Source: Bacillota bacterium (GTDB taxonomy: Bacteria > Bacillota > DTU030). Taken from it: 64,000 nt of DNA. Both the position numbers and the translations under genes were made by a program. The notes below the pieces were generated by a model. It was not told the DNA's origin and did not search any database. It saw only the letters and a list, made by a program, of their open reading frames with translations. Position 1 is the stretch's first letter; the number at the start of each line of letters is the position of its first letter. Shown here in pieces: positions 6,434 to 29,275 of this stretch. The stretch spans positions 14,895-78,894 of the forward strand of contig JAAYSG010000037.1 in NCBI GenBank assembly GCA_012518435.1, given 5' to 3'.

Positions 6434-8197
6434 TTATAGGTTCCTCTCCTTCGGGGCTGCCTTTTCCTTGTATTTATCCGCCAGGTTGAGCATTTCACGG
6501 GCGTGCCTTTTTGTTGTCCCCGTAACCTTGGTCCCCCCCAACATCCGGGCCAACTCCTCCACCTGTTCACCCGAACCCAGTGGCGTTAACTTGGTAAAGG
6601 TCCGTCCCGCCGTCACTTCCTTGGCAATTCGCCAGTGGGAATCCGCCATGGCCGCAATCTGGGGTAGATGAGTAACACAAAGGACCTGTCTTATCCTGGC
6701 CAGGCTGGCAAGCCTTTCCGCAACTGCCTGGGCCGACCTGCCCCCAATCCCGGCATCTATTTCATCAAAAATCATAGTAGGAATTGTATCAACACTGGCC
6801 AAGATGTTTTTCAAAGCCAGCATTATCCGGGATAACTCGCCCCCCGAGGCAATACGGGACAAAGGTTTAGGCTCCTCCCCCGGGTTAGGGGCAAGAAGAA
6901 ATTCAACCCCATCAATCCCATTCTCCCCAACCGCCAGCATTTTCCCATTTATCGGGATACCATCTTCAGCTTCCTCCTGGGAAAGGGAAACCTTAAATAT
7001 GGTTTTCTCCATCCCCAGGTAAGCCAACTCCGCCCTAACCTTGCCTTCCAATTGTGCAGCTAATTTATGCCTTTCCTCCGATAGATGGAGGGCACATTGG
7101 GATAGCTTTGCTTTTATCACCCTTTGCCTTTCCACCAATTCAGCACGGGATGCAGTGCTTTGTTCTAGTTTTTCTATTTCCCCTTGGACCCAGGCCTGGT
7201 AGGCAAGGATCTCCTGGATACTATCCCCGTACTTACGCTTCAATTGGGCAATGGCATAAAGGCGATCCTCAACCTCCATGAGGGCTGCGGGATTCAAATC
7301 TAAGGTGTCTCCGTAGGCCCGCAGGTCTCGGGCAATTTCTTCGATTTGGTAGAAGGCCGATTGGAGGTAGTCCACCATCTGGGTAAAACGTCCATCTACG
7401 GCTGCGGCCTCCCCCAGCCAGTCCACCACTAATCTAAGCTGTTCCAGCACAGAGCCATGGGTGGGACCATCCCCATACAAAACCCCGTAAGATTCCTGGC
7501 TCAGTTTTAAAAGTTTTTCCGTATGTTTGAGAACATCCCTACGGGCTGTAAGTTCCTCCTCCTCACCGGGTTTAAGGCCAGCGGCGGCTATTTCCTGGTC
7601 CTGGAATGAATACAGGTCTAGTTTTTGTGCCCGTTCCCTCTCCTCCTCCTTCAAGGCGGATATTTGTTTTTGCAAGGAACGGTAAGTCCGATAATTATTC
7701 TTCACCAATTGACGCAACTTCATTAATTCTGGGCCACCGTAGTTGTCCAGATAGGTAATATGATTCTTGGGATGTAGTAGGGATTGGTGTTCATGCTGGC
7801 CGTGAATATCCACCAAAAGCCGACCTAAGGAGCGGAGCATGCTTACGGTGGCAAGGCGGCCATTTATTCTACAGGTGCTTTTGCCGTTGGTATTCAGTTC
7901 CCGACACAGTATCAATTGTTGGTCGTGGTCCAGCTCTACCCCTAATTCCGCCAAGAGCTCCAGTATCTGGGGCTGGTCGGCCAGCTGGAAAAGGGCAGTC
8001 ACACTGGCTTGTTCCGCCCCGGTACGTATGTAGTGAAAACTTGCCCTTTCCCCCAAAACAAGACCAATGGCATCGATTAGGATGGATTTACCGGCCCCCG
8101 TCTCACCGGTTAGTATGTTCAGGCCCTTGGCCAGGGAAAGGTGCAGTTTCTCTATCACCGCAATGTTATTTACTTCAAGTTCCAGTAACACCCTCAT
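6434..8197 (-). CDS. recN: DNA repair protein RecN
   Basis: SMC-like protein with an N-terminal Walker A motif (GETGAGKSIL), a long coiled coil and a C-terminal signature/Walker B region. Synteny with argR and spoIVB is conserved. Confidence 0.9.
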   Translation of the reverse strand: MRVLLELEVNNIAVIEKLHLSLAKGLNILTGETGAGKSILIDAIGLVLGERASFHYIRTGAEQASVTALFQLADQPQILELLAELGVELDHDQQLILCRELNTNGKSTCRINGRLATVSMLRSLGRLLVDIHGQHEHQSLLHPKNHITYLDNYGGPELMKLRQLVKNNYRTYRSLQKQISALKEEERERAQKLDLYSFQDQEIAAAGLKPGEEEELTARRDVLKHTEKLLKLSQESYGVLYGDGPTHGSVLEQLRLVVDWLGEAAAVDGRFTQMVDYLQSAFYQIEEIARDLRAYGDTLDLNPAALMEVEDRLYAIAQLKRKYGDSIQEILAYQAWVQGEIEKLEQSTASRAELVERQRVIKAKLSQCALHLSEERHKLAAQLEGKVRAELAYLGMEKTIFKVSLSQEEAEDGIPINGKMLAVGENGIDGVEFLLAPNPGEEPKPLSRIASGGELSRIMLALKNILASVDTIPTMIFDEIDAGIGGRSAQAVAERLASLARIRQVLCVTHLPQIAAMADSHWRIAKEVTAGRTFTKLTPLGSGEQVEELARMLGGTKVTGTTKRHAREMLNLADKYKEKAAPKERNL

Positions 8198-12564: not shown

Positions 12565-13179
12565 TCACCTCCGCCGCATCCTTCCCTTTTCCGCCAGAAT
12601 TTGTAAACCCAGCTTCAATTCAAGCCATGCCAAAAGGCAGCCAACCCGATGGGTTATTTCTTGGCAACGATGGAGGGCAAAATACTTGCCCGCAGCCTTT
12701 CCACCCACCGTAAAGGCAGCAACCAAGGCCACAATAAGAAGGGAAGCCACCGCCTGCTTGGCCACCAAACCCAAAAGAAAAAGATTAAAGACAATACTGG
12801 CAGCAGCCGCCCCACTCACCGTACCGCAAATGTCGCCCACCACATCGTTGCAAAAACTGCTAACCCGATCGGCATGGCGGATTAGGCGAATGGCCTGGAC
12901 TGAACCAAATACCTTTTTGGCCGCCATGGAATGAAAGGAGGATTCACCAGTGGCGGTAACGGCTATACCAATTATATCAAAAACTATCCCGGTAAATATA
13001 ATCAAGAACAAGATCGATACAGCGGCAACTAAACCAAATAGGGTTAGGATAGAATTAGCCATCAGTGTCAGCACTATTGACAAAATAAAGGTTACCAAGC
13101 CCATATAAAGGCCCTGACGCAGGGGACCTCTATCCTTATTTAGCCTATTTTTTCCCCCAGAAGCCAAATTCTCCCCCAC
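12565..13179 (-). CDS. oapA: Small four-transmembrane membrane protein, OapA-like (OLE-associated protein A)
   Basis: About 180-200 aa with four predicted transmembrane helices. It is directly upstream of dxs with a 1-nt gap and directly downstream of a long structured non-coding region and ispA, which is the arrangement of the described ole-oapA locus. Confidence 0.5.
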
Positions 13180-13199: not shown

Positions 13200-13900
13200 A
13201 TAAAAGGGAAAGCCTTCCCCCTTGAAGTATCTTTCCCCATTCAGAACCATGTATGTTTAAGGAGGACAGGTGCTAGCAAGCCGGGTAAACATTGCGGCTT
13301 AAGGTCTAGTAGGTTTTCCCAGCAATGCACCAGGATGTCGCCATCCGGGCGGTTTCCCTTCACCGCATTACTCCATGCCGTCACCGGGCATAGGACTAGA
13401 TTACCACTTAGTCCACACTGCAATCCCCGACCCGCCCCAATTCCAAATTGGGCAGTCTAGGAGCTTTCCTCGACAGCCAACCACCCTTTAGCCTCTTTTG
13501 CAATAGGAGTTTCACAGTCAAATCCCGAATTATCCGGGCCCAAGGGAAAATCCGGTTACCACCTGTATCCGCCCCTACCACTCAAGGCAGGCTACACTGT
13601 ACACAGCTTCGCACCGCATACAGGTTCACCCCAAGCCGTAGCCCTTCAATGGACCACATACTTGGGTCTCCACGGAAGCAGGGTCAGGATCCACATGCCA
13701 TTGTGGACTGCCCTTGCCCCCTTAACCCCCAGCACCAGCCCCCGACTGGGCGTCAGCGGCCAGCACCAGGGACTTCATCGATGTGCCCTTAACGGATTTT
13801 TAGCCCCGCCTTCAAGGGTGCTTGCACTGACTAGAATACTGCACCACCTGTCCATTTTGCAATTATCAAGCAGGGGAAATTATATCATATCTTCAACAAC
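13200..13900 (-). ncRNA. ole: Candidate OLE (ornate large extremophilic) RNA
   Basis: A roughly 750-nt region between ispA and oapA with no plausible ORF; the three ORFs in the track overlap and have odd composition. It contains many GC-rich imperfect hairpins and sits in the diagnostic ispA-ole-oapA-dxs-tlyA context. Boundaries are approximate. Confidence 0.5.
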
Positions 13901-20223: not shown

Positions 20224-21414
20224 TTAGCGCAGCATCACTGTCATATTGCCGATACCAATGACAATGGTTATGGTTATAAAAAACATCACACCCACGGTGG
20301 CAACTGCTACCAGGACCACAGTAAGGCTGTTGGCCAAGGAATTAAGGCACTGGGTCAGCCTCCCTTCGGTAATGGGTTGAATTACAGCCGCCGCCACCTT
20401 ATAGATGAGGATGAGGGAAGCCAATTTTAAGATGGGAAAGGAACACAGCAAAATAACGGCAATGACACCCACAAGGCCAATGGCATTCTTTAAAAGAAGA
20501 GAACAACCGGCAATGGCATCTATGGTATCGGCAAGCATTTTTCCCACCAGGGGCACAAAGGTTCCCGCCAGAAACTTTACCGTCCGCAGGGAAACACCAT
20601 CGGAAACAGAAGCCGCCACCCCCTGGACAACAATAACCCCAATAAAAATGCTGATGACAAGGCCCAGGAAGGCAAGGGAGACTTCCTGAATTAAGCTGGC
20701 CAGCCGGGAAATACTAACACCCGGCGATAACTGGCTAACTATGGTCAACACAGCCGCAATGTAGATGAGGGGAAACATGGTCGATTTGATCAGGGTGGCC
20801 AAAACACTGATTACCAGAAACAGGAGGGGATGAAAGACCGCCGCCGATGCAACTCCTCCCACTGCAGTCAGGAGGGTCAAGAGCAGCGGTAGTAAGGCCT
20901 GCATAAAGGTAACCATTTTCTCTATGGCCTCTTGCCCGGCGCTTATGGCAATACCAAAGGTTTGCACCGCCAAGGCCAAAAGGACAAGAAAACACACTGA
21001 ATATGCAAGCTGTCCCACCCCCTGGGCGGCAAAAGCCTCCTGAATATTATTGAGAATGGCGGCTATAACAGCCAACAGGAGGAGCTGCCCCAAGAGGCGG
21101 GAATTGGCCACCACCTCTTTAAAAAGGTATTGCAAAAGGCCGCCAAGAAGAGCGCCCACATTGAAAATTTCCTTGCCAGCCACCATTCTTCCTATTAGCT
21201 CCCTAATATTCAACTCCGGCACCTGGGCAGCAGCCTGCCGATTGATATCACCTATAAGTGCCTCAATCCCGTGCAAATCAAGTATATCTAGCTGCTCCTC
21301 TATTATTTTTTCCCGGTCTAAAGCTGGCCCTCCCCCCTGGGCAGCCAGTGTAGGAGAACAGAGAATAAGGACCAGGGAAAAGACAACAATTGGCAGGGAA
21401 ATATTTTTTACCAT
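20224..21414 (-). CDS. spoIIIAE: Stage III sporulation protein AE
   Basis: Signal peptide plus a polytopic membrane protein of about 400 aa. Confidence 0.85.
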   Translation of the reverse strand: MVKNISLPIVVFSLVLILCSPTLAAQGGGPALDREKIIEEQLDILDLHGIEALIGDINRQAAAQVPELNIRELIGRMVAGKEIFNVGALLGGLLQYLFKEVVANSRLLGQLLLLAVIAAILNNIQEAFAAQGVGQLAYSVCFLVLLALAVQTFGIAISAGQEAIEKMVTFMQALLPLLLTLLTAVGGVASAAVFHPLLFLVISVLATLIKSTMFPLIYIAAVLTIVSQLSPGVSISRLASLIQEVSLAFLGLVISIFIGVIVVQGVAASVSDGVSLRTVKFLAGTFVPLVGKMLADTIDAIAGCSLLLKNAIGLVGVIAVILLCSFPILKLASLILIYKVAAAVIQPITEGRLTQCLNSLANSLTVVLVAVATVGVMFFITITIVIGIGNMTVMLR

Positions 21415-21463
21415 CTGTAACCCACCTCAGATGAATATCAGGAGCGAAAGGGAGAAAACCCCC

Positions 21464-21850
21464 TCAGGGCAAAAGTCTCAGGACAGAATCCAAAATAACC
21501 AAAAGGAGGGGAATGGCCAATAGCATAATCATAATCTTGCCGGCCAATTCGATCTTGCTGGCAATGGCACCCTCCCCCGCATCGCGGCAAATTTGGGAGC
21601 CAAACTGGGCAATATAGGCAATGGCCACAATCCTCAGCACAGTATTTAAATAAAAGAAATCAATATCAGCCCGGAAGGCCAACTGCTCCAAAAGGTTAAA
21701 TACAACGGCTATACGACCCAGAATTAGAAAGAAGATCAGGACCCCAGCAGACAGGCTCAGTAACAGGGCCAATTCTGGTCTTTGCTCCCGCAAAAGGATA
21801 ACAAGTATTGTCACCACAATTCCGATGCCGACAATGGGCATCAAGTCCAA
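21464..21850 (-). CDS. spoIIIAD: Stage III sporulation protein AD
   Basis: 128-aa four-helix membrane protein at the correct operon position. Confidence 0.8.
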   Translation of the reverse strand: MDLMPIVGIGIVVTILVILLREQRPELALLLSLSAGVLIFFLILGRIAVVFNLLEQLAFRADIDFFYLNTVLRIVAIAYIAQFGSQICRDAGEGAIASKIELAGKIMIMLLAIPLLLVILDSVLRLLP

Positions 21851-21862
21851 GTGACCACCCCT

Positions 21863-22063
21863 TTAATAAATGCGAAATACAGTGCGGACAGTATTAAAGA
21901 GCTGATTGATGAGCTGCACAACCATCAATAGAACAATAACAACTCCCGTCAGGGTGAGCATTTGGGCCTGTTCCTGTTTCCCAGCCTGGAGGAGAACAGT
22001 ATTTAATATGGAAATCAAAATTCCAATACCTGCTATTTTAAAAATTAGATCAATGTCCACCAT
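21863..22063 (-). CDS. spoIIIAC: Stage III sporulation protein AC
   Basis: 66-aa two-helix membrane protein. Confidence 0.8.
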   Translation of the reverse strand: MVDIDLIFKIAGIGILISILNTVLLQAGKQEQAQMLTLTGVVIVLLMVVQLINQLFNTVRTVFRIY

Positions 22064-22081
22064 TAGCCGCCCCCTTAGCTA

Positions 22082-22600
22082 TTAATAAAAGGTCAAAATC
22101 AACATTACCCCCAGGAGAAACCCCAGATAACGCCATAACCTCTCATTGGGGCCACTCCTCTCCCTCTCCCTCATTTCTGCCTCCTTAAGCTGTTGGCAGG
22201 TGAGGAGAAGGTGTTTTACCTGATCCTCCCTATCTGAACAACCCAATATCCCCCCCAGGGGCAGGAGGAGTTCCAATTCCCTGGGTCCCAAAACGCTATA
22301 CCTACCCAAATCCTTCAACCCCCGCTCCCAGGCCTCCCGGAAACTCAAAGACTGGGAAAGAAGGAGCTGGTCCCGGACCAGAAGAAAAAATGCTGCAAGT
22401 TGAGGATCTGTTAACGCCGCTACTTTTTTCAAAGCAGCTAACAGGGGAGTAACTCCATAGTTTATTTCGGTCTGTAAAAACTGCAGTGCCGTTTGCAAGG
22501 AGCGAAGCAGGCGGGGGCGTTGGGCATAACCGCGGGCAATATCATTTCCCAGTAGCCCACAGACAACAATCACCAGAATTGCCCCGGTAAATTTTAGCAT
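22082..22600 (-). CDS. spoIIIAB: Stage III sporulation protein AB
   Basis: 172 aa with a GspF-like fold, at the correct operon position. Confidence 0.75.
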   Translation of the reverse strand: MLKFTGAILVIVVCGLLGNDIARGYAQRPRLLRSLQTALQFLQTEINYGVTPLLAALKKVAALTDPQLAAFFLLVRDQLLLSQSLSFREAWERGLKDLGRYSVLGPRELELLLPLGGILGCSDREDQVKHLLLTCQQLKEAEMRERERSGPNERLWRYLGFLLGVMLILTFY

Positions 22601-22623
22601 TGGATCGTCCCCCTTCCCTTGGA

Positions 22624-23643
22624 TCAGCGCAGCGGATTTGCCAACAAGGAGGTGTTTGTTTCACCATCATACACCGCCTCCAGAGTACCCACACCCAGGG
22701 AAAAACCAAGAAATAGTATGCGTTGGAAAATCCCTCCGGCCAAGATATGGGCCAGGCTTGGGCGTCTTCTAAGGCTGTCCAGGCTATGTCCATGGGCCGT
22801 TGCCAATACCTTCACCCCCGCATGCAGGGCTTCGCCAATGGCCTCAGCATCCTCCCCATGCCCCAGTTCATCGGTGGCAATAACCTGGGGTGACATGGAT
22901 CGGACCAACATCATCATCCCTTCCGCCTTGGGACAGCCATCCAAAATGTCGGTCCGGGGCCCCAAATCCGCCTGGGGCACACCGGCACTACAGGCAGCAA
23001 TTTCCGAGCGTTCGTCCACTACCCCCACCTTCAAACCGGAAAAACCCAAGGAGGGTATCCCCCAACTTATCTGCCGGATGAGATCCCGCAAAAGAGTTGT
23101 CTTTCCCCCCAGGGGGGGTGATACGATGAGGGAATGGAATATGGTATTTCTTTTTTTATCAAGAAGGTAGGGGATTGCCTTGTCGCCCACACCGGGTAAC
23201 TCCCTGGCTAGGCGTATATTCATACCGGTAACATGCTTTAACAGCCTTACCCGCCCCTTTTCCAGAACCACCCTCCCGGTGAGCCCCACCCGGTGTCCAC
23301 CCTCCAGGGTTAAAAAACCTTGGCGCAGTTCCTCGGCAAAACTGTAAATGGAACAGCCACTCATGAGTTCTAAGGTCCTTGTCATGTCATCCCCCGTTAC
23401 AATATAGGCCCCAGGGGCTGAGGAAGCCATCCCCCCCTGGGGGCCAAGGAAACAATCCCCTTGGGCCAATACCAGCATAAGGGGTCTATTTTGCCGCAGG
23501 CGAATTTCCTCCACCTTTGCCCAAGTATCCCGGGGAATCTTCTTTAGGATATTACGGATCGGCACCGCCAAGGTGACCAAGATTTGCTCCAGATCCAAAA
23601 CCTTCCCCCTAACCCCCCCGTCCAGCAGCGCCAGAGCAGACAC
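22624..23643 (-). CDS. spoIIIAA: Stage III sporulation protein AA (secretion-type ATPase)
   Basis: Walker A motif PPLGGKTTLLRDL. First gene of the operon. Confidence 0.85.
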   Translation of the reverse strand: MSALALLDGGVRGKVLDLEQILVTLAVPIRNILKKIPRDTWAKVEEIRLRQNRPLMLVLAQGDCFLGPQGGMASSAPGAYIVTGDDMTRTLELMSGCSIYSFAEELRQGFLTLEGGHRVGLTGRVVLEKGRVRLLKHVTGMNIRLARELPGVGDKAIPYLLDKKRNTIFHSLIVSPPLGGKTTLLRDLIRQISWGIPSLGFSGLKVGVVDERSEIAACSAGVPQADLGPRTDILDGCPKAEGMMMLVRSMSPQVIATDELGHGEDAEAIGEALHAGVKVLATAHGHSLDSLRRRPSLAHILAGGIFQRILFLGFSLGVGTLEAVYDGETNTSLLANPLR

Positions 23644-23703
23644 AAAAACCCCCCCTTCCCTTCTATAGATATTATCCTCCTGGCAAAATTATGAAAATAA
23701 AAT

Positions 23704-23733
23704 AAAAAAACTGTCCCCCATTTGTGGACAGCC
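23704..23733 (-). terminator. Rho-independent terminator downstream of the dam-like gene
   Basis: On the minus strand, GGCUGUCC-ACAAAUGGG-GGACAG is followed by UUUUUUU. Confidence 0.5.
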
Positions 23734-23771
23734 ATCTACGACGAAACTCAAGGATAGAACCCCATTTTATG

Positions 23772-24692
23772 TTAATAATTCCTGATGATTAATTCCGTAA
23801 TTTCACCCCTTTTCTTTCCATGGCAGTTTATATTTCGCTTGGCAAAAACCCGCTCCATGCGAAAACCCCGATATAAATGGTCGAAAAAATCATCCCGGGG
23901 ATCCCTTGCCACCGGATCAGAGTTGCTAAGAAGTAAAAATGCATTCCTTTGGTCCAACTTTCGGAAATACTTGGCCAGGCGGATCTGGTCTTCATCGGTA
24001 AAATCCCCCCCGGTATAACTTGTAAACCTTGCCGTCCTTGTCAATGGTCTATAGGGCGGATCGAAATAGACCAGACTGCCCGCCTGGACATAGGCTTCAG
24101 AGGAGAGGAAATCTGCACAGAGCAGATTTACCCCCGCCAGTGCTTTACTCACCTCCCTGATGTTGGCTGCAGCACAAATGGCAGGTTTTTTGTAACGCCC
24201 GTGGGGGACATTAAATTCACCTCTTTTATTCTGCCTAAATAAACCATTGAAGCAAGTCTTGTTTAAAAATATTAACTGACTGGCCCGCCGGCTCCAGTCT
24301 TTTCCGTAAGACCCATAATCAAAGGTCAACCTTTGTCGGTTATATTGTTGCCTAATTTGATAGTATAGTTCCCTTCTACCAGAAGTATCCAAGCATAAAT
24401 ACTCTTCCTCCAGCCGGTCTAAATGAGAAATTAAGGCCTCCGGTTCCCGTTGCACCACCTTGTAAGCCAGCATCAGTTCCTTGTTAATATCCATTAAATA
24501 CACATTTTCCAGTGCAAACATTTCTTGAAGGTAAAAGAAGAAGGCCCCTCCCCCCAAAAAAGGTTCCACATAGGTGCTAATGGTTTTTGATTCCTTTATT
24601 TGCGCCGGCAATCTTCGGGATAACTCCGCCAATAACTGTGTTTTGCCCCCCGCCCATTTTAAGAAGGGTTTTGCCGAAAATCCCCTGCTCAC
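23772..24692 (-). CDS. dam: Dam-family DNA N6-adenine methyltransferase (orphan, no adjacent restriction endonuclease)
   Basis: N-terminal KPFLKWAGGK motif and a catalytic DPPY motif. At 306 aa it is the typical size of Dam/DpnM/MboIA-type methyltransferases. No cognate endonuclease ORF lies nearby. Confidence 0.85.
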   Translation of the reverse strand: MSRGFSAKPFLKWAGGKTQLLAELSRRLPAQIKESKTISTYVEPFLGGGAFFFYLQEMFALENVYLMDINKELMLAYKVVQREPEALISHLDRLEEEYLCLDTSGRRELYYQIRQQYNRQRLTFDYGSYGKDWSRRASQLIFLNKTCFNGLFRQNKRGEFNVPHGRYKKPAICAAANIREVSKALAGVNLLCADFLSSEAYVQAGSLVYFDPPYRPLTRTARFTSYTGGDFTDEDQIRLAKYFRKLDQRNAFLLLSNSDPVARDPRDDFFDHLYRGFRMERVFAKRNINCHGKKRGEITELIIRNY

Positions 24693-24699
24693 TGGTGTT

Positions 24700-25532
24700 C
24701 ACCCCCTCCCAATATTATCCACTGGCACTGCTCCTTGTCAAATTTCTTCGCAGCGGGCCGCCTTGGGGTACACCTTCTGGGCTGTCTTCAAATATTCCCT
24801 CCACCATAACTCCTGCTTGTTTGCCAGGTCCATGTCTACCACGAAGCGATATCCTTCTGTGATGTCGGCCCGGGCCTTTTGTAGCGCCCCGTGGGCGCTC
24901 CTTCTTGGTCGGAAGCCAAAGCTGTTGTTTGAAAACTGTTCTTCAAAGAAGGGGACAGGACTTGGCATATGGCTTTTCCCGGTGTTCGCGAAGGTATGGA
25001 AGAAGTCCTTCAACTTTCATGCCGTCGATGCCACCGGCACCCTTGTTCTTCTTTACCCGCTTGTAGGCACGGTTTAGATTGTCTCGGGTTAATATTTGCT
25101 CCAGCAGTCCTACGGTCTGTTTGGTGGTGTTGGTGATGTCGGTTTTGGTCATCTTGGGTGGCGCGCACACTACTGCATATTCTTTCCGTTCCGCGGATAC
25201 CTTTTGCAGATAGTCTTCATATCGAAGTTGTCCGTGTTTTACTAGGCCACTTGCAGTGACTGTCATTGACCCTCACCCCCGATGGTTCGGCCCTTCCGCT
25301 CTGCCACATTTACTGCGGGCAATTCCGTGTAGTTATTGGGCTTTGACTTGTTAAGCAGTCTTACCCTTGCTTACAGCCTTATGTGGTTTCTATTCGTCAG
25401 ACCGGGGGTTTGCCTACACCTTCCTTCAGATTCCACCTCGCGATGGATACCCTTGGTGTTCGGCTATTCCCTTCCCACTACCGGGCGGGTTCGGGACTTG
25501 CACCCTTTAGATTGCATCCATGCCGGGCGCAC
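24700..25532 (-). mobile_element. Degenerate bacterial class C-like group II intron (5' portion only)
   Basis: The minus strand begins with GUGCGCC immediately after terminator hairpin + UUUUUUAU, which is the characteristic class C insertion site. About 380 nt of ribozyme domains precede the RT start. The 3' part of the RT and ribozyme domains V/VI are absent. Confidence 0.6.
24738..25266 (-). pseudogene. Truncated, frameshifted group II intron reverse transcriptase/maturase
   Basis: Two overlapping frames encode LLEQILTRDNLNRAYKRVKKNKGAGGIDGM (RT domain 0/1) and FGFRPRRSAHGALQKARADITEGYRFVVDMDL (RT domain 2). Only about 170 aa of the expected more than 400 aa are present. Confidence 0.7.
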
Positions 25533-25570
25533 ATAAAAAAGGGCGGCTCCTGGCCGCCCCACTTAATTGC
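25533..25570 (-). terminator. Rho-independent terminator of the zinc-ribbon gene (and group II intron target site)
   Basis: On the minus strand, GGGGCGGCCAGGAGCCGCCC is followed by UUUUUUAU. Confidence 0.65.
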
Positions 25571-25591
25571 CTCACAAATTGAAGGGATATT

Positions 25592-26120
25592 TTAAAAATC
25601 TATTTCAGCATCCCCAACTGCCTCATCCTTGGCTTCAAATTCTTCTAATTCTGCATCGTCGTCTTCATCATCATCCCCATCTTCATAGTCATCTTCATAA
25701 TCATAGTCATAGTCTTCATAGTCAAAATCGTCATCTTCGGTGCTAAAGACAACAGCGCCACAATTGGGACAGGTTATTTCAATTATTGTCTCTTCATCTT
25801 CGTCAAGGGCCCCCTCCTCAAAGAAGACCGTTTCCCCACATTCAGGACATTCAACCTCGATGTACTCCCCATCCTCATGGCCAATGCCCTCGATATCGTC
25901 GTAATAGTCGTCCTCCAGTTCTCCCAGGCTTTCATCAACGGCGCCTACATACTCCTCCAGATCCTGGTAGTCACCGGCTATTTCTTCCATCTCAGCGGTT
26001 ATTTCAGCCAAAACTTCCAGTATTCCCCCCAAAATCTTCCCTTCCCCAGTATCCTGTTTGAGGTCCAGGCCTTCAGCCAACCCCTGTAAGTAGGCAATCC
26101 TTTCCATGAGCTCCCGCATG
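25592..26120 (-). CDS. Acidic zinc-ribbon protein of unknown function
   Basis: Two CxxC pairs (CPECG and CPNCG) and an extremely acidic Asp/Glu/Tyr-rich C-terminus (DDDFDYEDYDYDYEDDYEDGDDDEDDD). The probable start is ATG at 26120, which has a strong ribosome-binding site (GGAAGGGAGGAG); the ORF-track start at 26149 overlaps that site. Confidence 0.5.
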
Positions 26121-26196
26121 TGACACTCCTCCCTTCCTTGCTTTACCAATTTGATAGTTATAGTATAACACAGGAATGCAAAAATAACACCTGGAG

Positions 26197-26754
26197 TTAA
26201 ACCCGTTCCATGTATTCTCTAGAGCGGGTATCAACCCTAATTACATCACCTTCCTCAATAAAAAGGGGAACCAACACCTCGGCCCCGGTTTCCAATACGG
26301 CCCTTTTAGTCGCTCCAGATACTGTGTCTCCCCTAATTCCCGGTTCAGTCTCCGTAATGGCCAATTCAACAAAATTCGGCAGTTCTATACCAATGACATC
26401 CCCCTTGTATTCCATAACATAGATGAGCATATTCTCCTTGAGAAGGCTAATGGTATCTCCCAATTCTTCCTGGGGAAAATTAATCTGTTCAAAGCTTTCA
26501 GTGTCCATAAAGACCAAAAATTCCCCCGAACGATATAAGTATTGCATCTCCCTTCTTTCCACATGGGCCCGGCTAACCTTTTCCCCGGCCCGAAAGGTTT
26601 TGTCAATGGTCGCCTCCGTGCGAATATTCTTCAGTTTGCTGCGAACAAAGGCGGCACCCTTGCCCGGCTTAACATGCTGAAAATATACTACCGTATATAC
26701 TTCCCCATCCAGCTCAATGGTCATCCCAGTCTTAAAATCATTGGTTGAAATCAC
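26197..26754 (-). CDS. efp: Translation elongation factor P
   Basis: 185 aa. The [15 protein letters not shown] loop carries the conserved modified lysine. Confidence 0.9.
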
Positions 26755-26771
26755 TGGCGGTTCCTCCCCAT

Positions 26772-27842
26772 TTATTGTATTCTTATAAGTTCACGGGTAG
26801 ACCGATGCAAAACTTCGCTTCCAGTTTCAGTTATCAGCAGCAAGTCTTCAATCCTCACTCCACCCCAGCCGGGAATATAAATCCCCGGCTCTATGGTAAC
26901 AAGCATTCCCGGAAGTAAAACCGTGTCCGCCCCAGGGAACAGGTTGGGGCCTTCGTGGATATTTAAACCCACACCGTGGCCCAGCCCATGGCCAAAAAAG
27001 GCACCAAACCCCCTGTCGTTGATTACCCGCCGGGCAAGGGCATCAATTTCACCGGCGGTTACCCCCGGGGCCAGGGCCGCCACAGCGGCCCGTTGGGCCT
27101 CCAGGACAACCTCATAGACTTCTGTCTGTTTCGCCGTTGCTTCCCCTACGATTACAGTCCGGGTAAAATCCGAATGATAGCCATTAACTATGGTCCCAAA
27201 GTCCATAATAACAAATTCCCCTGCCTGGATCAACTTCTTACTGGCAACCCCGTGGGGCAGCGCAGCTCGGGGACCGGAGGCAACTATTATATCAAAACTG
27301 GCCCCTTCCCCGCCGCGCCGGCGGGCGAAGAATTCCAATTCCAAGGCCACCTCTTTTTCCCGACGGCCCGGCTCCAGGTATTTAATAATATGTTCAAAGG
27401 CCAGATCATCCAACCGAGACGCCCTTTTGATACTTTCTATTTCTGTAGCATCCTTTCGCATCCGGAGGGTTTCCACCAAACCGCTGACGGGAAACCATTG
27501 GACCCCCTGAACCTTGTCCACTAACCTTTGATAAATCTGATAGCTAATATGTTCCTCTTCAAAACCAAGTGTCTTTAGGCCAGTGTCCACGACAAGCTGG
27601 GAAAGGGTCCCAGTAAAGGGCCGCCGATATTCCACAACCTCCCACCCCCCGGCCTCCTCCCGAGCCTGCCCCACATACCGAAAATCAACACAGAGGAAGG
27701 CCCTGTCCCTGGTCACCAATAACCAGCCCTCACTACCGGTAAAACCACTCATGTACAGGCAGTTTTCCCTATTGCCTATGAGTAAGCCATCTAAATTGGT
27801 CTCTGCCAGCCTACGGCGCAGTTTCTTTAGGCGTACCGGCAA
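26772..27842 (-). CDS. pepP: Xaa-Pro aminopeptidase (M24 family)
   Basis: Creatinase-like N-terminal domain plus an M24 catalytic domain with its metal ligands ([13 protein letters not shown]). Confidence 0.8.
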
Positions 27843-27922
27843 ATCCCATCACCTTCCCTCCTAACACAAATTAAAGCCAGCGCAAGGGTTTGTCCTGGTA
27901 TTAAAGGCGGGGAAACCACCTT

Positions 27923-29275
27923 TTACTCCCCGCTAACCGCCATGGGACCAAAGCGTATACTGGGGGAGCCATAACCCAAATAAAAACGGAGGTCATTGCC
28001 CAGGGCTTCAACACCACGAAATAGATCTAAAATATTACCGGCCACGGCCACACCCCGAACGGGATAAGCCAACTCTCCCTTTTCAATCCAGATCCCGGCT
28101 GCACCAACGGAGAAATCCCCGGAAATGGGATTAGCCGTATGCATACCCAAAACCTCCAGAAGATAAAATCCCTGGGCAATATCCTTAAGCAATTCCCCTT
28201 GGTTACAATCCCCGGCCTCAAGGTAAAGATTGCTTGGTCCAATTTCCGGGGTGCCCCGATAGGAAGGACGGGAAGCATTGCCCGTTGAGTCGGTACCATC
28301 CTTGCTGGCGGTATAGGTATTGTAAAGGTAGGTCTGTAATTGCCCCCCTTCTATCAACACCGTCCTGCCAGAGGGAACACCTTCCCCATCCACTGGACTG
28401 GAATTGATTCCCCGGGGCAATGTTCCATCATCTATTAAGGTTACCCTTGGGGATGCCACCATTTCCCCTAATTTACCCGCCAGGAGGGAGCGACCCTTTT
28501 GCACAGCCTCTGCACTTAGGGCCGGGGCAAGCACTCCCAAAAACTGGGTCGCAACCCGGGGCGGCATGACAAGGGGCACCCTTTGGGAAGAGACCTTTTT
28601 CGCCCCCAGCATTGCCACCGCCTCTTGGCTGGCCTCCTGGCCGATGACCTCAGGTTTTAAATCAGCAAAATCGAGTACATAGTCCATGCCAGAACCAGTT
28701 TGGGTATCACCATTTTCCCGGGCCACCACCCACACGGAGCCGCCGCAAAAGGAACCCCTGTAATTCACATCTACACCCCGGGAATTGACAATGCTGACCT
28801 CATAGACCGTATCTCCATAGCTGGCATGTTCAGTTTTAATTACCCGGGGGTCAGCAGCAAAGGCAGCCTCCTCCACGGCCTTGGCGACCCTAATCTTTTC
28901 TTCCACTGGCGTGGCCACAATCTTGGGATCATAAAGTACAAGTTCCGGTATCCTTGCCGGCGAAGCCGGCAGGGCATTATTTTTATCAGCGGCGGTTTTG
29001 GCCGCATTGGCAATGGCCTGGGAAACAGTCTTCTCTACCGGCCCTTTGGCCAAAAAGGAGGTATAGGCAAACCCCATTCGTTCACCAACTAAAACCCTAA
29101 TACCCAGGCCCCTTTCCTCAGCCTGCTCGATGGACTCCACCTTCCCTTGCCTTACCCGCACGCTAAAGGATTTGTCCCTGAGCAAGAATGCCTCCGCCAA
29201 TTCTGCCCCCTGTTTCTGGCTCTGTGCCACCGCCCAGTGGGCAATCTCTTCATTTTTCATCATCCAACCTCCCAA
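27923..29275 (-). CDS. tldE: PmbA/TldE family metallopeptidase
   Basis: 450 aa in the TldD/PmbA fold, adjacent to tldD. Confidence 0.8.
   Translation of the reverse strand: MGGWMMKNEEIAHWAVAQSQKQGAELAEAFLLRDKSFSVRVRQGKVESIEQAEERGLGIRVLVGERMGFAYTSFLAKGPVEKTVSQAIANAAKTAADKNNALPASPARIPELVLYDPKIVATPVEEKIRVAKAVEEAAFAADPRVIKTEHASYGDTVYEVSIVNSRGVDVNYRGSFCGGSVWVVARENGDTQTGSGMDYVLDFADLKPEVIGQEASQEAVAMLGAKKVSSQRVPLVMPPRVATQFLGVLAPALSAEAVQKGRSLLAGKLGEMVASPRVTLIDDGTLPRGINSSPVDGEGVPSGRTVLIEGGQLQTYLYNTYTASKDGTDSTGNASRPSYRGTPEIGPSNLYLEAGDCNQGELLKDIAQGFYLLEVLGMHTANPISGDFSVGAAGIWIEKGELAYPVRGVAVAGNILDLFRGVEALGNDLRFYLGYGSPSIRFGPMAVSGE

What the first reader, a model, noticed from the sequence alone, without database searches (positions are those of the whole stretch)
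23704..24737. Orphan Dam-family m6A methyltransferase wedged between spoIIIAA and the intron remnant
A complete Dam/DpnM-type N6-adenine methyltransferase gene (KPFLKWAGGK and DPPY motifs) has its own ribosome-binding site and terminator. It sits in a roughly 2-kb insertion, together with the intron fragment, that interrupts the otherwise conserved efp...spoIIIAA synteny. No restriction endonuclease ORF is adjacent. The methyltransferase start lies only 45 nt from the point where the intron RT ORF breaks off. This suggests either that the methyltransferase displaced the intron's 3' half or that both arrived as one mobile cassette. Orphan m6A methyltransferases in sporeformers can influence sporulation and gene regulation, and this one sits immediately upstream of the spoIIIA promoter.
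Basis: partly seen in the sequence, partly recalled or inferred. Interest (0 to 1): 0.55.

Follow-up and report, generated by a model that had tools for sequence, protein, structure and literature searches.

The report
Solitary Dam-type GATC methylase beside spoIIIA
This is an intact Dam-family DNA adenine methylase with no restriction partner nearby, which a small group of uncultured biogas-reactor Bacillota has inherited next to the spoIIIA sporulation operon; it is an ordinary member of a well-known enzyme family, and it did not arrive with the broken group II intron beside it.

Summary
A complete 306-aa Dam/DpnM-type m6A methyltransferase gene lies on the minus strand at 23772-24692. It has its own sigma-70-type promoter, ribosome-binding site and terminator. 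No endonuclease gene was found anywhere in the 64-kb window.

More distant relatives have efp, a zinc-ribbon gene and spoIIIAA directly adjacent, so the methylase is an insertion into that synteny. But the insertion is old. Three further lineages carry the same gene at the same spot (69-73% amino-acid identity). In them it diverges in step with its neighbours under strong purifying selection (dN/dS 0.06-0.12), and none of them has the intron.

Only about 780 bp (24751-25532) is specific to this species. It is a decayed group IIC-like intron that inserted after the zinc-ribbon gene's terminator. A later deletion cut it off about 9 nt upstream of the methylase's -35 box.

All E. coli Dam residues that contact GATC are conserved. 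At least 29 of 80 more distant family members sit beside a type II restriction endonuclease gene (DpnII, a second family, or MutH-like), so GATC specificity is likely.

I found no evidence of a link to sporulation. The spoIIIA promoter contains no GATC site, and a conserved terminator separates the two transcription units.

Verdict: a new member of a known kind, of low to moderate interest.

The parts
23772..24692 (-). Dam-family (D12 class, alpha-type) N6-adenine DNA methyltransferase CDS, 306 aa, GTG start
   Evidence: ORF list. PF02086 E 9e-56. TIGR00571 at 276.7 bits. DpnM and E. coli Dam are the best PDB hits. dN/dS 0.06-0.12 against orthologues.
24702..24710 (-). Ribosome-binding site GGGAGGGGG upstream of the GTG start
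   Evidence: Read from the sequence. The purine-rich block is retained in the alignment of four lineages.
24714..24741 (-). Sigma-70-type promoter of the methylase: TTGACA (24741-24736), 16-nt spacer, GATAAT (24719-24714)
   Evidence: Promoter scan, 11 of 12 consensus positions. Both hexamers fall in invariant columns across window, L009, L011 and L013.
23704..23733 (-). Intrinsic terminator of the methylase gene (GGCTGTCC...GGACAG followed by seven T)
   Evidence: RNA fold of -13.2 kcal/mol. Stem and T-run are conserved in L009, L010 and L013 while the loop varies.
23644..23703 (-). Nearly invariant spoIIIA promoter/leader block (TTTCATAATTTTGCCAGGAGGATAATATCTATAGAAGGGAAGG). It contains no GATC.
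   Evidence: Alignments A1 and A3. It is also conserved in outgroup L014, where it directly follows the zinc-ribbon gene's terminator. Its resemblance to a sigma-E promoter is my own reading and was not tested.
22624..23643 (-). spoIIIAA, first gene of the spoIIIAA-AH operon downstream
   Evidence: PF19568 E 5.5e-98. Operon gene list.
24751..25532 (-). Decayed group II (IIC-like) intron remnant. It keeps the 5' end GTGCG, domains D1-D4 and three RT fragments. It lacks D5/D6 and the 3' half of the RT.
   Evidence: Rfam RF02001 at 25284-25447, E 6e-26, with no D5/D6 hit. The frame-corrected translation matches GsI-IIC RT 6ar1 at residues 2-51, 95-141 and 172-195, E 4e-26. The remnant is absent from L009-L014.
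25540..25560 (-). Terminator hairpin of the zinc-ribbon gene. The intron 5' end lies immediately after its T-run.
   Evidence: Terminator scan. RNA fold of -17.6 kcal/mol.
25592..26149 (-). Acidic zinc-ribbon protein (CD1247 N-terminal domain family). It is the conserved neighbour that lies between efp and spoIIIA in many sporeformers.
   Evidence: NF045650 E 1.2e-21. tblastn synteny across loci L011-L089.
26197..26754 (-). efp (elongation factor P), the upstream anchor of the synteny
   Evidence: Three EF-P Pfam domains.

Best explanation
This gene encodes a solitary ('orphan') Dam/DpnM-type DNA methyltransferase. It most likely uses S-adenosyl-methionine to methylate N6 of the adenine in GATC by base flipping.

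It is its own transcription unit, with a conserved sigma-70-type promoter, ribosome-binding site and terminator. It probably derives from a DpnII/MboI-type GATC restriction-modification module. It entered the gap between the zinc-ribbon gene and the spoIIIA promoter in the common ancestor of a small clade of uncultured anaerobic-digester Bacillota. Since then it has been inherited vertically under purifying selection.

The adjacent intron fragment is unrelated. A terminator-targeting group IIC-like intron inserted later, in this species only, after the zinc-ribbon gene's terminator. A deletion then removed its 3' half and an ancestral neighbouring gene, and stopped just short of the methylase promoter.

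Shown: family membership, intact motifs, conserved position, selection, absence of a nearby endonuclease, and independence from the intron.

Inferred: GATC specificity, constitutive expression, and the selective benefit. The benefit I think most likely is genome-wide GATC methylation that serves host physiology. Protection against the DpnII-type enzymes common in this gene family is a second possible benefit.
For: Family and motifs:
- PF02086 and TIGR00571 above its cut-off.
- DpnM and E. coli Dam are the best PDB matches.

GATC specificity:
- The E. coli Dam residues K9, N120, L122, R124, P134 and Y138 are described as cognate GATC recognition or contact residues in PMC4417163.
- They align to K12, N149, L151, R153, P163 and Y167 of this protein.
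- The intercalating residue Y119 is F148 here, as in DpnM.
- Of 80 more distant homologues (44-60% identity), at least 29 sit next to a type II endonuclease. Sixteen have DpnII (PF04556, E 6e-96). Ten have a DUF6996/6997 protein that PADLOC calls REase_II. Three have a MutH-like protein.

Solitary state:
- No homologue of those endonucleases is in the window or in close relatives' loci.
- All annotated genes in the 64 kb are core genes.
- GATC is not avoided: observed/expected is 0.95.
- PADLOC scores the orphan-methylase model at 307 bits and the type II model at 300 bits.

Age and vertical descent:
- Orthologues lie directly upstream of spoIIIAA or downstream of efp and the zinc-ribbon gene in L009-L013.
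- The four proteins form one clade with the window sequence branching first.
- Methylase dN is 0.10-0.19, against 0.12-0.16 for SpoIIIAA. dN/dS is 0.06-0.12.
- Eighty outgroup spoIIIAA loci lack the gene.
- GC content is 45%, against 52.4 +/- 1.9% for long ORFs, a possible trace of foreign origin.

Separate transcription unit:
- The promoter and the terminator are both conserved.

Intron independence.
Against: - Specificity and activity are inferred from sequence only. There are no methylome data.
- Only 64 kb of a multi-megabase genome was examined, plus gene lists that lie inside the same span. A cognate endonuclease elsewhere cannot be excluded.
- dS is saturated (1.6-3.2 in window comparisons), so the dN/dS values are approximate.
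- The clade is known from just four lineages, all metagenomic contigs. L011/L012 end before spoIIIAA.
- 'Intron later' rests on parsimony. One gain is favoured over a gain plus a clean loss.
- The predicted transcript start would leave a very short leader (about 15 nt), and this has not been checked.
- efp and the zinc-ribbon gene also have low GC (45-47%), so the composition argument is weak.
Confidence: 0.78

Rival explanations
1. The methylase is a sporulation-linked epigenetic regulator. On this view its conserved position immediately upstream of the spoIIIA promoter reflects a functional coupling to spoIIIA expression or sporulation timing, analogous to CamA in Clostridioides difficile.
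For: - The methylase-spoIIIAA adjacency is conserved on the same strand in the three lineages whose contigs reach spoIIIAA (window, L009/L010, L013) despite saturated synonymous divergence.
- The orphan methylase CamA is required for normal sporulation in C. difficile (PMC8187626 and bioRxiv 10.1101/398891, listed).
Against: - A conserved intrinsic terminator separates the two units, and the methylase has a sigma-70-type promoter, not a sporulation-type one.
- The invariant spoIIIA promoter block has no GATC site.
- GATC is not enriched in intergenic DNA: 11 sites against 18.6 expected.
- The same spoIIIA promoter works without any methylase in L014 and 79 other outgroup loci.
- The next-closest homologues sit in unrelated contexts.
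- The region upstream of spoIIIA varies among sporeformers in general, so the adjacency may just mark a permissive insertion site.
Confidence: 0.1
2. The methylase is half of a split type II restriction-modification system, and its GATC-specific endonuclease is encoded elsewhere in the genome.
For: - At least 29 of 80 more distant family members are adjacent to a type II endonuclease.
- PADLOC scores the type II methylase model almost as high as the orphan model.
- Only 64 kb of the genome was inspected.
Against: - No homologue of the three partner endonuclease families is in the window or in relatives' loci.
- In this family the partner, where present, lies within about 400 bp.
- The closest homologues with inspected contexts (P0002-P0005, P0010, P0012, P0025) also have no recognised endonuclease next to them. 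P0006, at 66% identity, does have an uncharacterised candidate nuclease 17 bp downstream.
- The fixed position and purifying selection across speciation are typical of solitary methylases.
- GATC is not depleted.
Confidence: 0.08
3. The enzyme recognises a motif other than GATC. Other D12-class enzymes such as M.EcoRV and M.FokI have different targets.
For: - The D12 class contains enzymes that do not target GATC (general knowledge).
- Identity to the characterised GATC enzymes is modest; the matches to DpnM and E. coli Dam are E 5e-45 and 3e-37.
Against: - All E. coli Dam base-contact residues are conserved or conservatively replaced, as in DpnM.
- The TIGR00571 'dam' model is passed at more than twice its cut-off.
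- Homologues pair with DpnII-family and MutH/Sau3AI-like endonucleases, families whose characterised members cut at GATC (their GATC specificity is general knowledge).
Confidence: 0.08
4. One reading: the methylase and the intron fragment arrived together as one ~2-kb mobile cassette, or insertion of the methylase destroyed the intron's 3' half.
For: - The two features are physically next to each other.
- RT homology ends only 9 nt upstream of the methylase -35 box.
- Both features are absent from outgroups.
Against: - Three sister lineages have the methylase at the same site, with the same promoter and terminator, and no intron.
- The intron's 5' end lies exactly after a terminator T-run, as expected for autonomous group IIC insertion (PMC1702495 abstract).
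- The relatives carry a 199-209-aa gene where the window has the intron remnant. A deletion spanning the intron 3' half and that gene therefore explains the junction.
Confidence: 0.03

Closest known systems
M.DpnII (DpnM, PDB 2dpm) and M.MboIA/M.MjaIII-type GATC modification methylases of type II R-M systems
   Same: - Best solved-structure match (E 5e-45, full length).
- Same D12/alpha architecture: N-terminal KWxGGK, FxGxG and DPPY motifs.
- Same Phe at the intercalating position.
- More distant homologues of the window protein sit directly upstream of DpnII-family endonucleases.
   Different: - No endonuclease or second methylase (DpnA-like) is nearby.
- The gene is fixed in a core chromosomal position and has been inherited through several speciation events.
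E. coli Dam (PDB 2g1p), the paradigm solitary GATC methylase
   Same: - Solitary state and its own promoter.
- Conserved GATC-contact residues K9, N120, L122, R124, P134 and Y138.
- PADLOC orphan-methylase model at 307 bits.
   Different: - It fails the E. coli-type equivalog model NF008152 (154.9 bits against a cut-off of 441), so it is not an orthologue.
- The host is a Bacillota sporeformer, and Bacillota are not known to use MutH/SeqA-type Dam-dependent functions (general knowledge).
- The gene is restricted to a narrow clade, not a whole class.
CamA of Clostridioides difficile (orphan m6A methylase needed for normal sporulation)
   Same: Both are orphan m6A methyltransferases conserved within a lineage of sporeformers.
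   Different: - CamA methylates CAAAAA (PMC8187626 abstract), whereas the window enzyme carries the E. coli Dam GATC-contact residues.
- CamA did not appear among the solved-structure sequence matches to the window protein.
- Nothing here links the window enzyme to sporulation other than its position.
Bacterial group IIC introns (e.g. B.h.I1; GsI-IIC RT, PDB 6ar1). This applies to the neighbouring remnant only.
   Same: - The 5' end lies just after an intrinsic terminator, the typical IIC location (PMC1702495 abstract).
- The RT fragments match GsI-IIC RT best.
   Different: The element is a non-functional fragment. It has two internal RT deletions and a frameshift, and it lacks D5/D6 and the RT C-terminal half.

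Membership tests
Dam family / D12-class (alpha) N6-adenine DNA methyltransferases | Full-length match to the family profiles above their curated cut-offs | tested here: met
   PF02086 at 189.8 bits against a cut-off of 22, covering profile positions 1-253 of 253. TIGR00571 at 276.7 bits against 114.85.
Dam family / D12-class (alpha) N6-adenine DNA methyltransferases | Catalytic DPPY motif and AdoMet-binding FxGxG motif, in alpha order (AdoMet-binding region, then the target-recognition region, then the catalytic motif) | tested here: met
   EPFLGGG at aa 43-49, the target-recognition region around aa 140-170, and DPPY at aa 211-214. All align to DpnM and E. coli Dam.
Dam family / D12-class (alpha) N6-adenine DNA methyltransferases | GATC-recognition residues as in E. 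coli Dam (K9, Y119, N120, L122, R124, P134, Y138) | tested here: met
   K12, F148 (Tyr to Phe, as in DpnM), N149, L151, R153, P163 and Y167 in the HMMER alignment. The residue roles are taken from PMC4417163.
Dam family / D12-class (alpha) N6-adenine DNA methyltransferases | Demonstrated m6A methylation of GATC | not testable with these tools
   This needs methylome sequencing or DpnI/DpnII digestion assays.
E. coli-type Dam orthologue (NF008152 equivalog) | Score above the equivalog cut-off | tested here: not met
   154.9 bits against a cut-off of 441.
Type II restriction-modification system (DpnII/MboI type) | A cognate restriction endonuclease gene adjacent to the methylase | tested here: not met
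   The neighbours are spoIIIAA and an intron remnant. tblastn with DpnII, REase_II (DUF6996/6997) and MutH-like representatives found no hit below E=1 in the window and none at the 1e-3 cut-off in close relatives' loci.
Type II restriction-modification system (DpnII/MboI type) | A cognate endonuclease anywhere in the genome | not testable with these tools
   Only the 64-kb window could be inspected, and it holds only core genes. The gene lists of L001 and L179 lie inside the same span.
Persistent solitary ('orphan') methyltransferase | Conserved at one chromosomal position across related species, under purifying selection, without an endonuclease | tested here: met
   Four lineages share the locus. 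dN/dS is 0.06-0.12. The four proteins form one clade. No endonuclease was found.
Group IIC intron (neighbouring remnant) | Insertion downstream of an intrinsic terminator, plus a IIC-type RT | tested here: met
   GTGCG at 25532 directly follows the T-run of the hairpin at 25540-25560. The best RT match is GsI-IIC RT, E 4e-26.
Group IIC intron (neighbouring remnant) | A complete ribozyme (D5/D6) and an intact RT/maturase ORF | tested here: not met
   Rfam finds only D1-D4 (RF02001) at E<=1 across 21000-28000. The RT is in three fragments that end at motif RT4.

The most novel reading that the evidence does not exclude
The clade-specific solitary GATC methylase has been kept immediately upstream of the spoIIIA promoter because GATC methylation feeds into the developmental programme of these uncultured sporeformers, for example through hemimethylation-dependent timing of sporulation genes. 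That would make it a second, independently recruited 'sporulation methylase' after CamA, built on a Dam scaffold.
Probability: 0.08. Interest if true: 0.55.

Novelty: new member of a known kind. Interest (0 to 1): 0.24.

Why it matters
The finding matters only modestly.

- It adds one more case of a restriction-modification-derived Dam-type methylase that became a solitary, vertically inherited chromosomal gene. Here the host is an uncultured biogas-reactor lineage of sporeforming Bacillota.
- It predicts that these genomes are fully GATC-methylated. That is useful for binning by methylation signal, for choosing restriction enzymes, and for any future genetic work.
- The locus is a clear small example of how a deletion next to a decaying group II intron was tolerated only up to the promoter of a selected gene.
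- It does not open a new mechanism or answer a long-standing question.

Tried and rejected
- **Cassette idea.** blastn against relatives showed that only the ~870-bp intron segment is window-specific, so I rejected it.
- **Linkage of D12 methylases to spoIIIAA in general.** None of 80 outgroup spoIIIAA loci has it; L051 has only a 30%-identical methylase 9 kb away on the other strand. None of 80 metagenomic methylase loci has it either.
- **GATC avoidance or clustering as a sign of restriction pressure or regulation.** Observed/expected is 0.95. Intergenic sites number 11 against 18.6 expected. No site lies in the spoIIIA promoter. This is uninformative or negative.
- **Candidate endonucleases next to close homologues.**
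  - The 209-aa protein in L009/L011 has only a weak, sub-threshold DUF2680 hit.
  - The 237-aa protein next to P0010/P0012 has an apparent N-terminal signal sequence (my reading of the sequence) and no family hit.
  - Neither looks like a nuclease.
- **Pfam on the individual RT fragments.** This gave nothing. Only a frame-corrected concatenation matched group II RTs in the PDB.
- **One contig look-up failed.** The protein from 6434-8197 was not on record, probably because the gene caller used a different start. I annotated that part of the window with Pfam directly instead.
- **Not attempted.** I ran no structure prediction, because the sequence-level matches to solved Dam and DpnM structures were unambiguous.
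Full report
**What is there**

The minus strand carries an ORF at 23772-24692 that encodes a 306-aa protein beginning MSRGFSAKPFLKWAGGK.
- It matches Pfam PF02086 (D12-class N6-adenine methyltransferase) over the whole profile, E 9e-56.
- It passes NCBIfam TIGR00571 'dam' at 276.7 bits against a cut-off of 114.85.
- It fails the E. coli-type equivalog NF008152 (154.9 against 441).
- The best solved structures are DpnM (2dpm, E 5e-45) and E. coli Dam (2g1p, E 3e-37).
- The KWAGGK, EPFLGGG and DPPY motifs are all present.

The gene lies between spoIIIAA (22624-23643, PF19568) and a group II intron fragment. Rfam RF02001 (domains D1-D4) hits 25284-25447 at E 6e-26, and there is no D5/D6 hit. Further upstream are an acidic zinc-ribbon protein of the CD1247 family (25592-26149) and efp (26197-26754).

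**Expression signals**

Alignment with three related loci shows two conserved signal sets.
- Upstream is a sigma-70-type promoter, TTGACA (24741-24736), a 16-nt spacer, and GATAAT (24719-24714). It is conserved in all four lineages. The consensus scan scores it 11 of 12.
- Downstream is a hairpin plus a run of seven T at 23704-23733, with conserved stem and variable loop.
- Immediately after the terminator comes a ~60-nt block that is almost invariant (23644-23703). It is also present in the outgroup locus L014, directly after the zinc-ribbon gene's terminator.
- This block is the spoIIIA promoter/leader. By my reading it resembles the sigma-E consensus, but I did not test that.

The methylase is thus a self-contained transcription unit placed between a terminator and the spoIIIA promoter.

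**Source organism and relatives**

The exact protein occurs on eight contigs from biogas and anaerobic-digester metagenomes, all with the same arrangement. A source names it 'MAG: Firmicutes bacterium'.

The three closest homologues were located on their contigs.
- P0002 (73% identity) lies directly upstream of spoIIIAA-AH in L009.
- P0004 (72%) lies downstream of efp and the zinc-ribbon gene in L011. That contig ends just after the methylase.
- P0003 (70%) lies between efp/zinc-ribbon gene and spoIIIAA in L013.
- None of these loci has the intron. Between the zinc-ribbon gene and the methylase they carry other genes. These are a 199-209-aa protein in all three lineages, a two-component system in L010 and L011 (with a trace at the cut edge of L009), and an Ogt-like protein in L013.

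blastn shows that the window is homologous to these loci over 26800-25588 and 24719-22621. Only about 870 bp in between is window-specific.

**How old is the insertion**

A scan of one genome per species with SpoIIIAA returned 80 loci. tblastn of the six local proteins against them gave the following.
- pepM24, efp, the zinc-ribbon gene and spoIIIAA are widely syntenic. Examples are L014 at 64% SpoIIIAA identity, Pelotomaculum and Thermincola.
- No methylase lies between them. The only D12 hit (L051) is 30% identical, 9 kb away and on the other strand.

The methylase is therefore an insertion relative to the wider synteny, but it is shared by a clade of at least four species-level lineages.
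- Within that clade the four proteins form one group, with the window sequence branching first.
- Non-synonymous divergence of the methylase (dN 0.10-0.19) is in the same range as that of SpoIIIAA (0.12-0.16).
- dN/dS is 0.06-0.12 with saturated dS, comparable to the flanking genes.
- The gene's GC content (45%) is below that of all 32 long ORFs in the window (52.4 +/- 1.9%). This is weak evidence of foreign origin, because efp and the zinc-ribbon gene are also GC-poor.

**The intron remnant**

- The intron's 5' end (GTGCG, 25532) directly follows the T-run of the zinc-ribbon gene's terminator (25540-25560). That is the typical location of group IIC introns (PMC1702495 abstract).
- A frame-corrected translation matches the group IIC reverse transcriptase GsI-IIC RT (6ar1, E 4e-26) in three pieces: residues 2-51, 95-141 and 172-195.
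- The remnant therefore has two internal deletions and a frameshift, and it ends at RT motif 4 (GVPQGGPL) at about 24751.
- From about 9 nt further on, the sequence is the conserved methylase promoter.

The simplest history has four steps:
1. The methylase was already in place.
2. The intron inserted on its own after the terminator, in this lineage only.
3. A deletion removed the intron's 3' half together with the ancestral 199-209-aa gene.
4. Only deletions that spared the methylase promoter survived.

Steps 2 to 4 are inference from parsimony.

**Specificity and relation to restriction-modification systems**

The E. coli Dam residues described as making cognate GATC contacts are K9, Y119, N120, L122, R124, P134 and Y138 (PMC4417163). 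They align to K12, F148, N149, L151, R153, P163 and Y167 here. DpnM also has Phe at the intercalating position.

A metagenome scan with the methylase returned 80 loci at 44-60% identity. I clustered their immediate neighbours and annotated the clusters.
- 16 have a DpnII-family endonuclease (PF04556, E 6e-96).
- 10 have a DUF6996/DUF6997 protein that PADLOC calls a type II restriction enzyme (E 1.5e-56).
- 3 have a MutH/Sau3AI-like protein.
- 5 have a second N6/N4 methylase.

The family is thus largely the modification arm of GATC restriction-modification systems, and GATC specificity for the window enzyme is likely.

Several results point to the window enzyme being solitary.
- Representatives of those endonucleases find nothing in the window or in the close relatives' loci.
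- The rest of the window is core chromosome. It holds spo0A, spoIVB, recN, argR, nadK, dxs, OLE RNA, ispA, xseAB, nusB, the spoIIIA operon, efp, pmbA/tldD, pilus genes, a PBP, RNase G and others.
- The next-closest homologues (62-66% identity) are in unrelated contexts, mostly with no recognised endonuclease beside them.
- GATC is not avoided: observed/expected is 0.95.
- PADLOC scores the orphan and type II methylase models about equally, 307 against 300 bits.

**Link to sporulation**

I found none beyond adjacency.
- There is no GATC in the spoIIIA promoter block.
- GATC sites are not enriched in intergenic DNA (11 against 18.6 expected).
- The same promoter works without a methylase in the outgroups.
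- A conserved terminator insulates the two units.

The CamA precedent (PMC8187626) concerns an orphan methylase with a different target motif (CAAAAA), which did not appear among the sequence matches to solved structures.

**Verdict**

This is a real and intact gene of an ordinary kind: a solitary Dam-family, probably GATC-specific, methylase. It is clade-conserved, was probably domesticated from a DpnII-type restriction-modification module, and is unrelated in origin to the intron debris next to it.

The 'recent ~2-kb cassette with the intron', the 'displaced the intron' idea and the implied role at spoIIIA are not supported.

The main open points are untested activity and specificity, and the unseen rest of the genome.

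Noticed in passing
window 13254-13863 (minus strand): A full-length OLE (ornate large extremophilic) RNA, RF01071, 494 bits. It lies between ispA/xseB/xseA and a 204-aa ORF (12565-13179) that has no Pfam hit and could be an OLE-associated protein.
   Followed up: no
L099, L100, L102, L109, L110, L115, L116, L118, L123, L165 (ORF directly downstream of the methylase, e.g. L118:4365-5672): Ten Dam-family methylase loci carry a DUF6996/DUF6997 protein in place of DpnII; the longer forms also have a DUF7226 domain. PADLOC labels the protein REase_II (E 1.5e-56). These Pfam 'domains of unknown function' therefore look like a GATC-system restriction endonuclease.
   Followed up: partly
L183:2550-3707 and L105:5920-7071: A 385-aa protein with no Pfam or PADLOC hit lies 17 bp downstream of the methylase homologue P0006. 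A 58%-identical copy lies downstream of the methylase in L105. It may be an uncharacterised partner nuclease, but that is unexplained.
   Followed up: partly
window 23644-23703; L014:4655-4715; L009, L010, L013: A ~60-nt spoIIIA promoter/leader block is almost invariant across lineages whose coding sequences have saturated synonymous divergence. The motif is TTTCATA(A/T)TTTTGCCAG...ATATCTATAGAAG. It resembles a sigma-E-type promoter by eye.
   Followed up: partly
window 25592-26149 and many loci among L011-L089: An acidic zinc-ribbon protein (CD1247 N-terminal domain family) lies between efp and spoIIIAA in many clostridial and bacillary sporeformers. Its function is unknown.
   Followed up: no
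L096, L097, L180, L181: A second group of methylases in the same subfamily (P0010, P0012; 64-65% identity) is also solitary. They share another context across contigs from several samples: radical-SAM gene, DUF2200, a 56-aa ORF, the methylase, a 237-aa protein with an apparent signal sequence, then (in L096) a V-type ATPase operon. Some of these contigs come from the same biogas samples as the window organism.
   Followed up: partly
L009:414-1043, L011:7195-7824, L013:5975-6574: A 199-209-aa protein with a hydrophobic N-terminal segment, several cysteines toward the C-terminus and only a weak DUF2680 hit lies upstream of the methylase in all three sister lineages. It has been deleted in the window species.
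   Followed up: no
window 23772-24692: The methylase has lower GC (45%) than all 32 ORFs of at least 250 aa in the window (minimum 48.3%). Four GATC sites cluster in its 3' third (23900, 23915, 23982, 24059).
   Followed up: no
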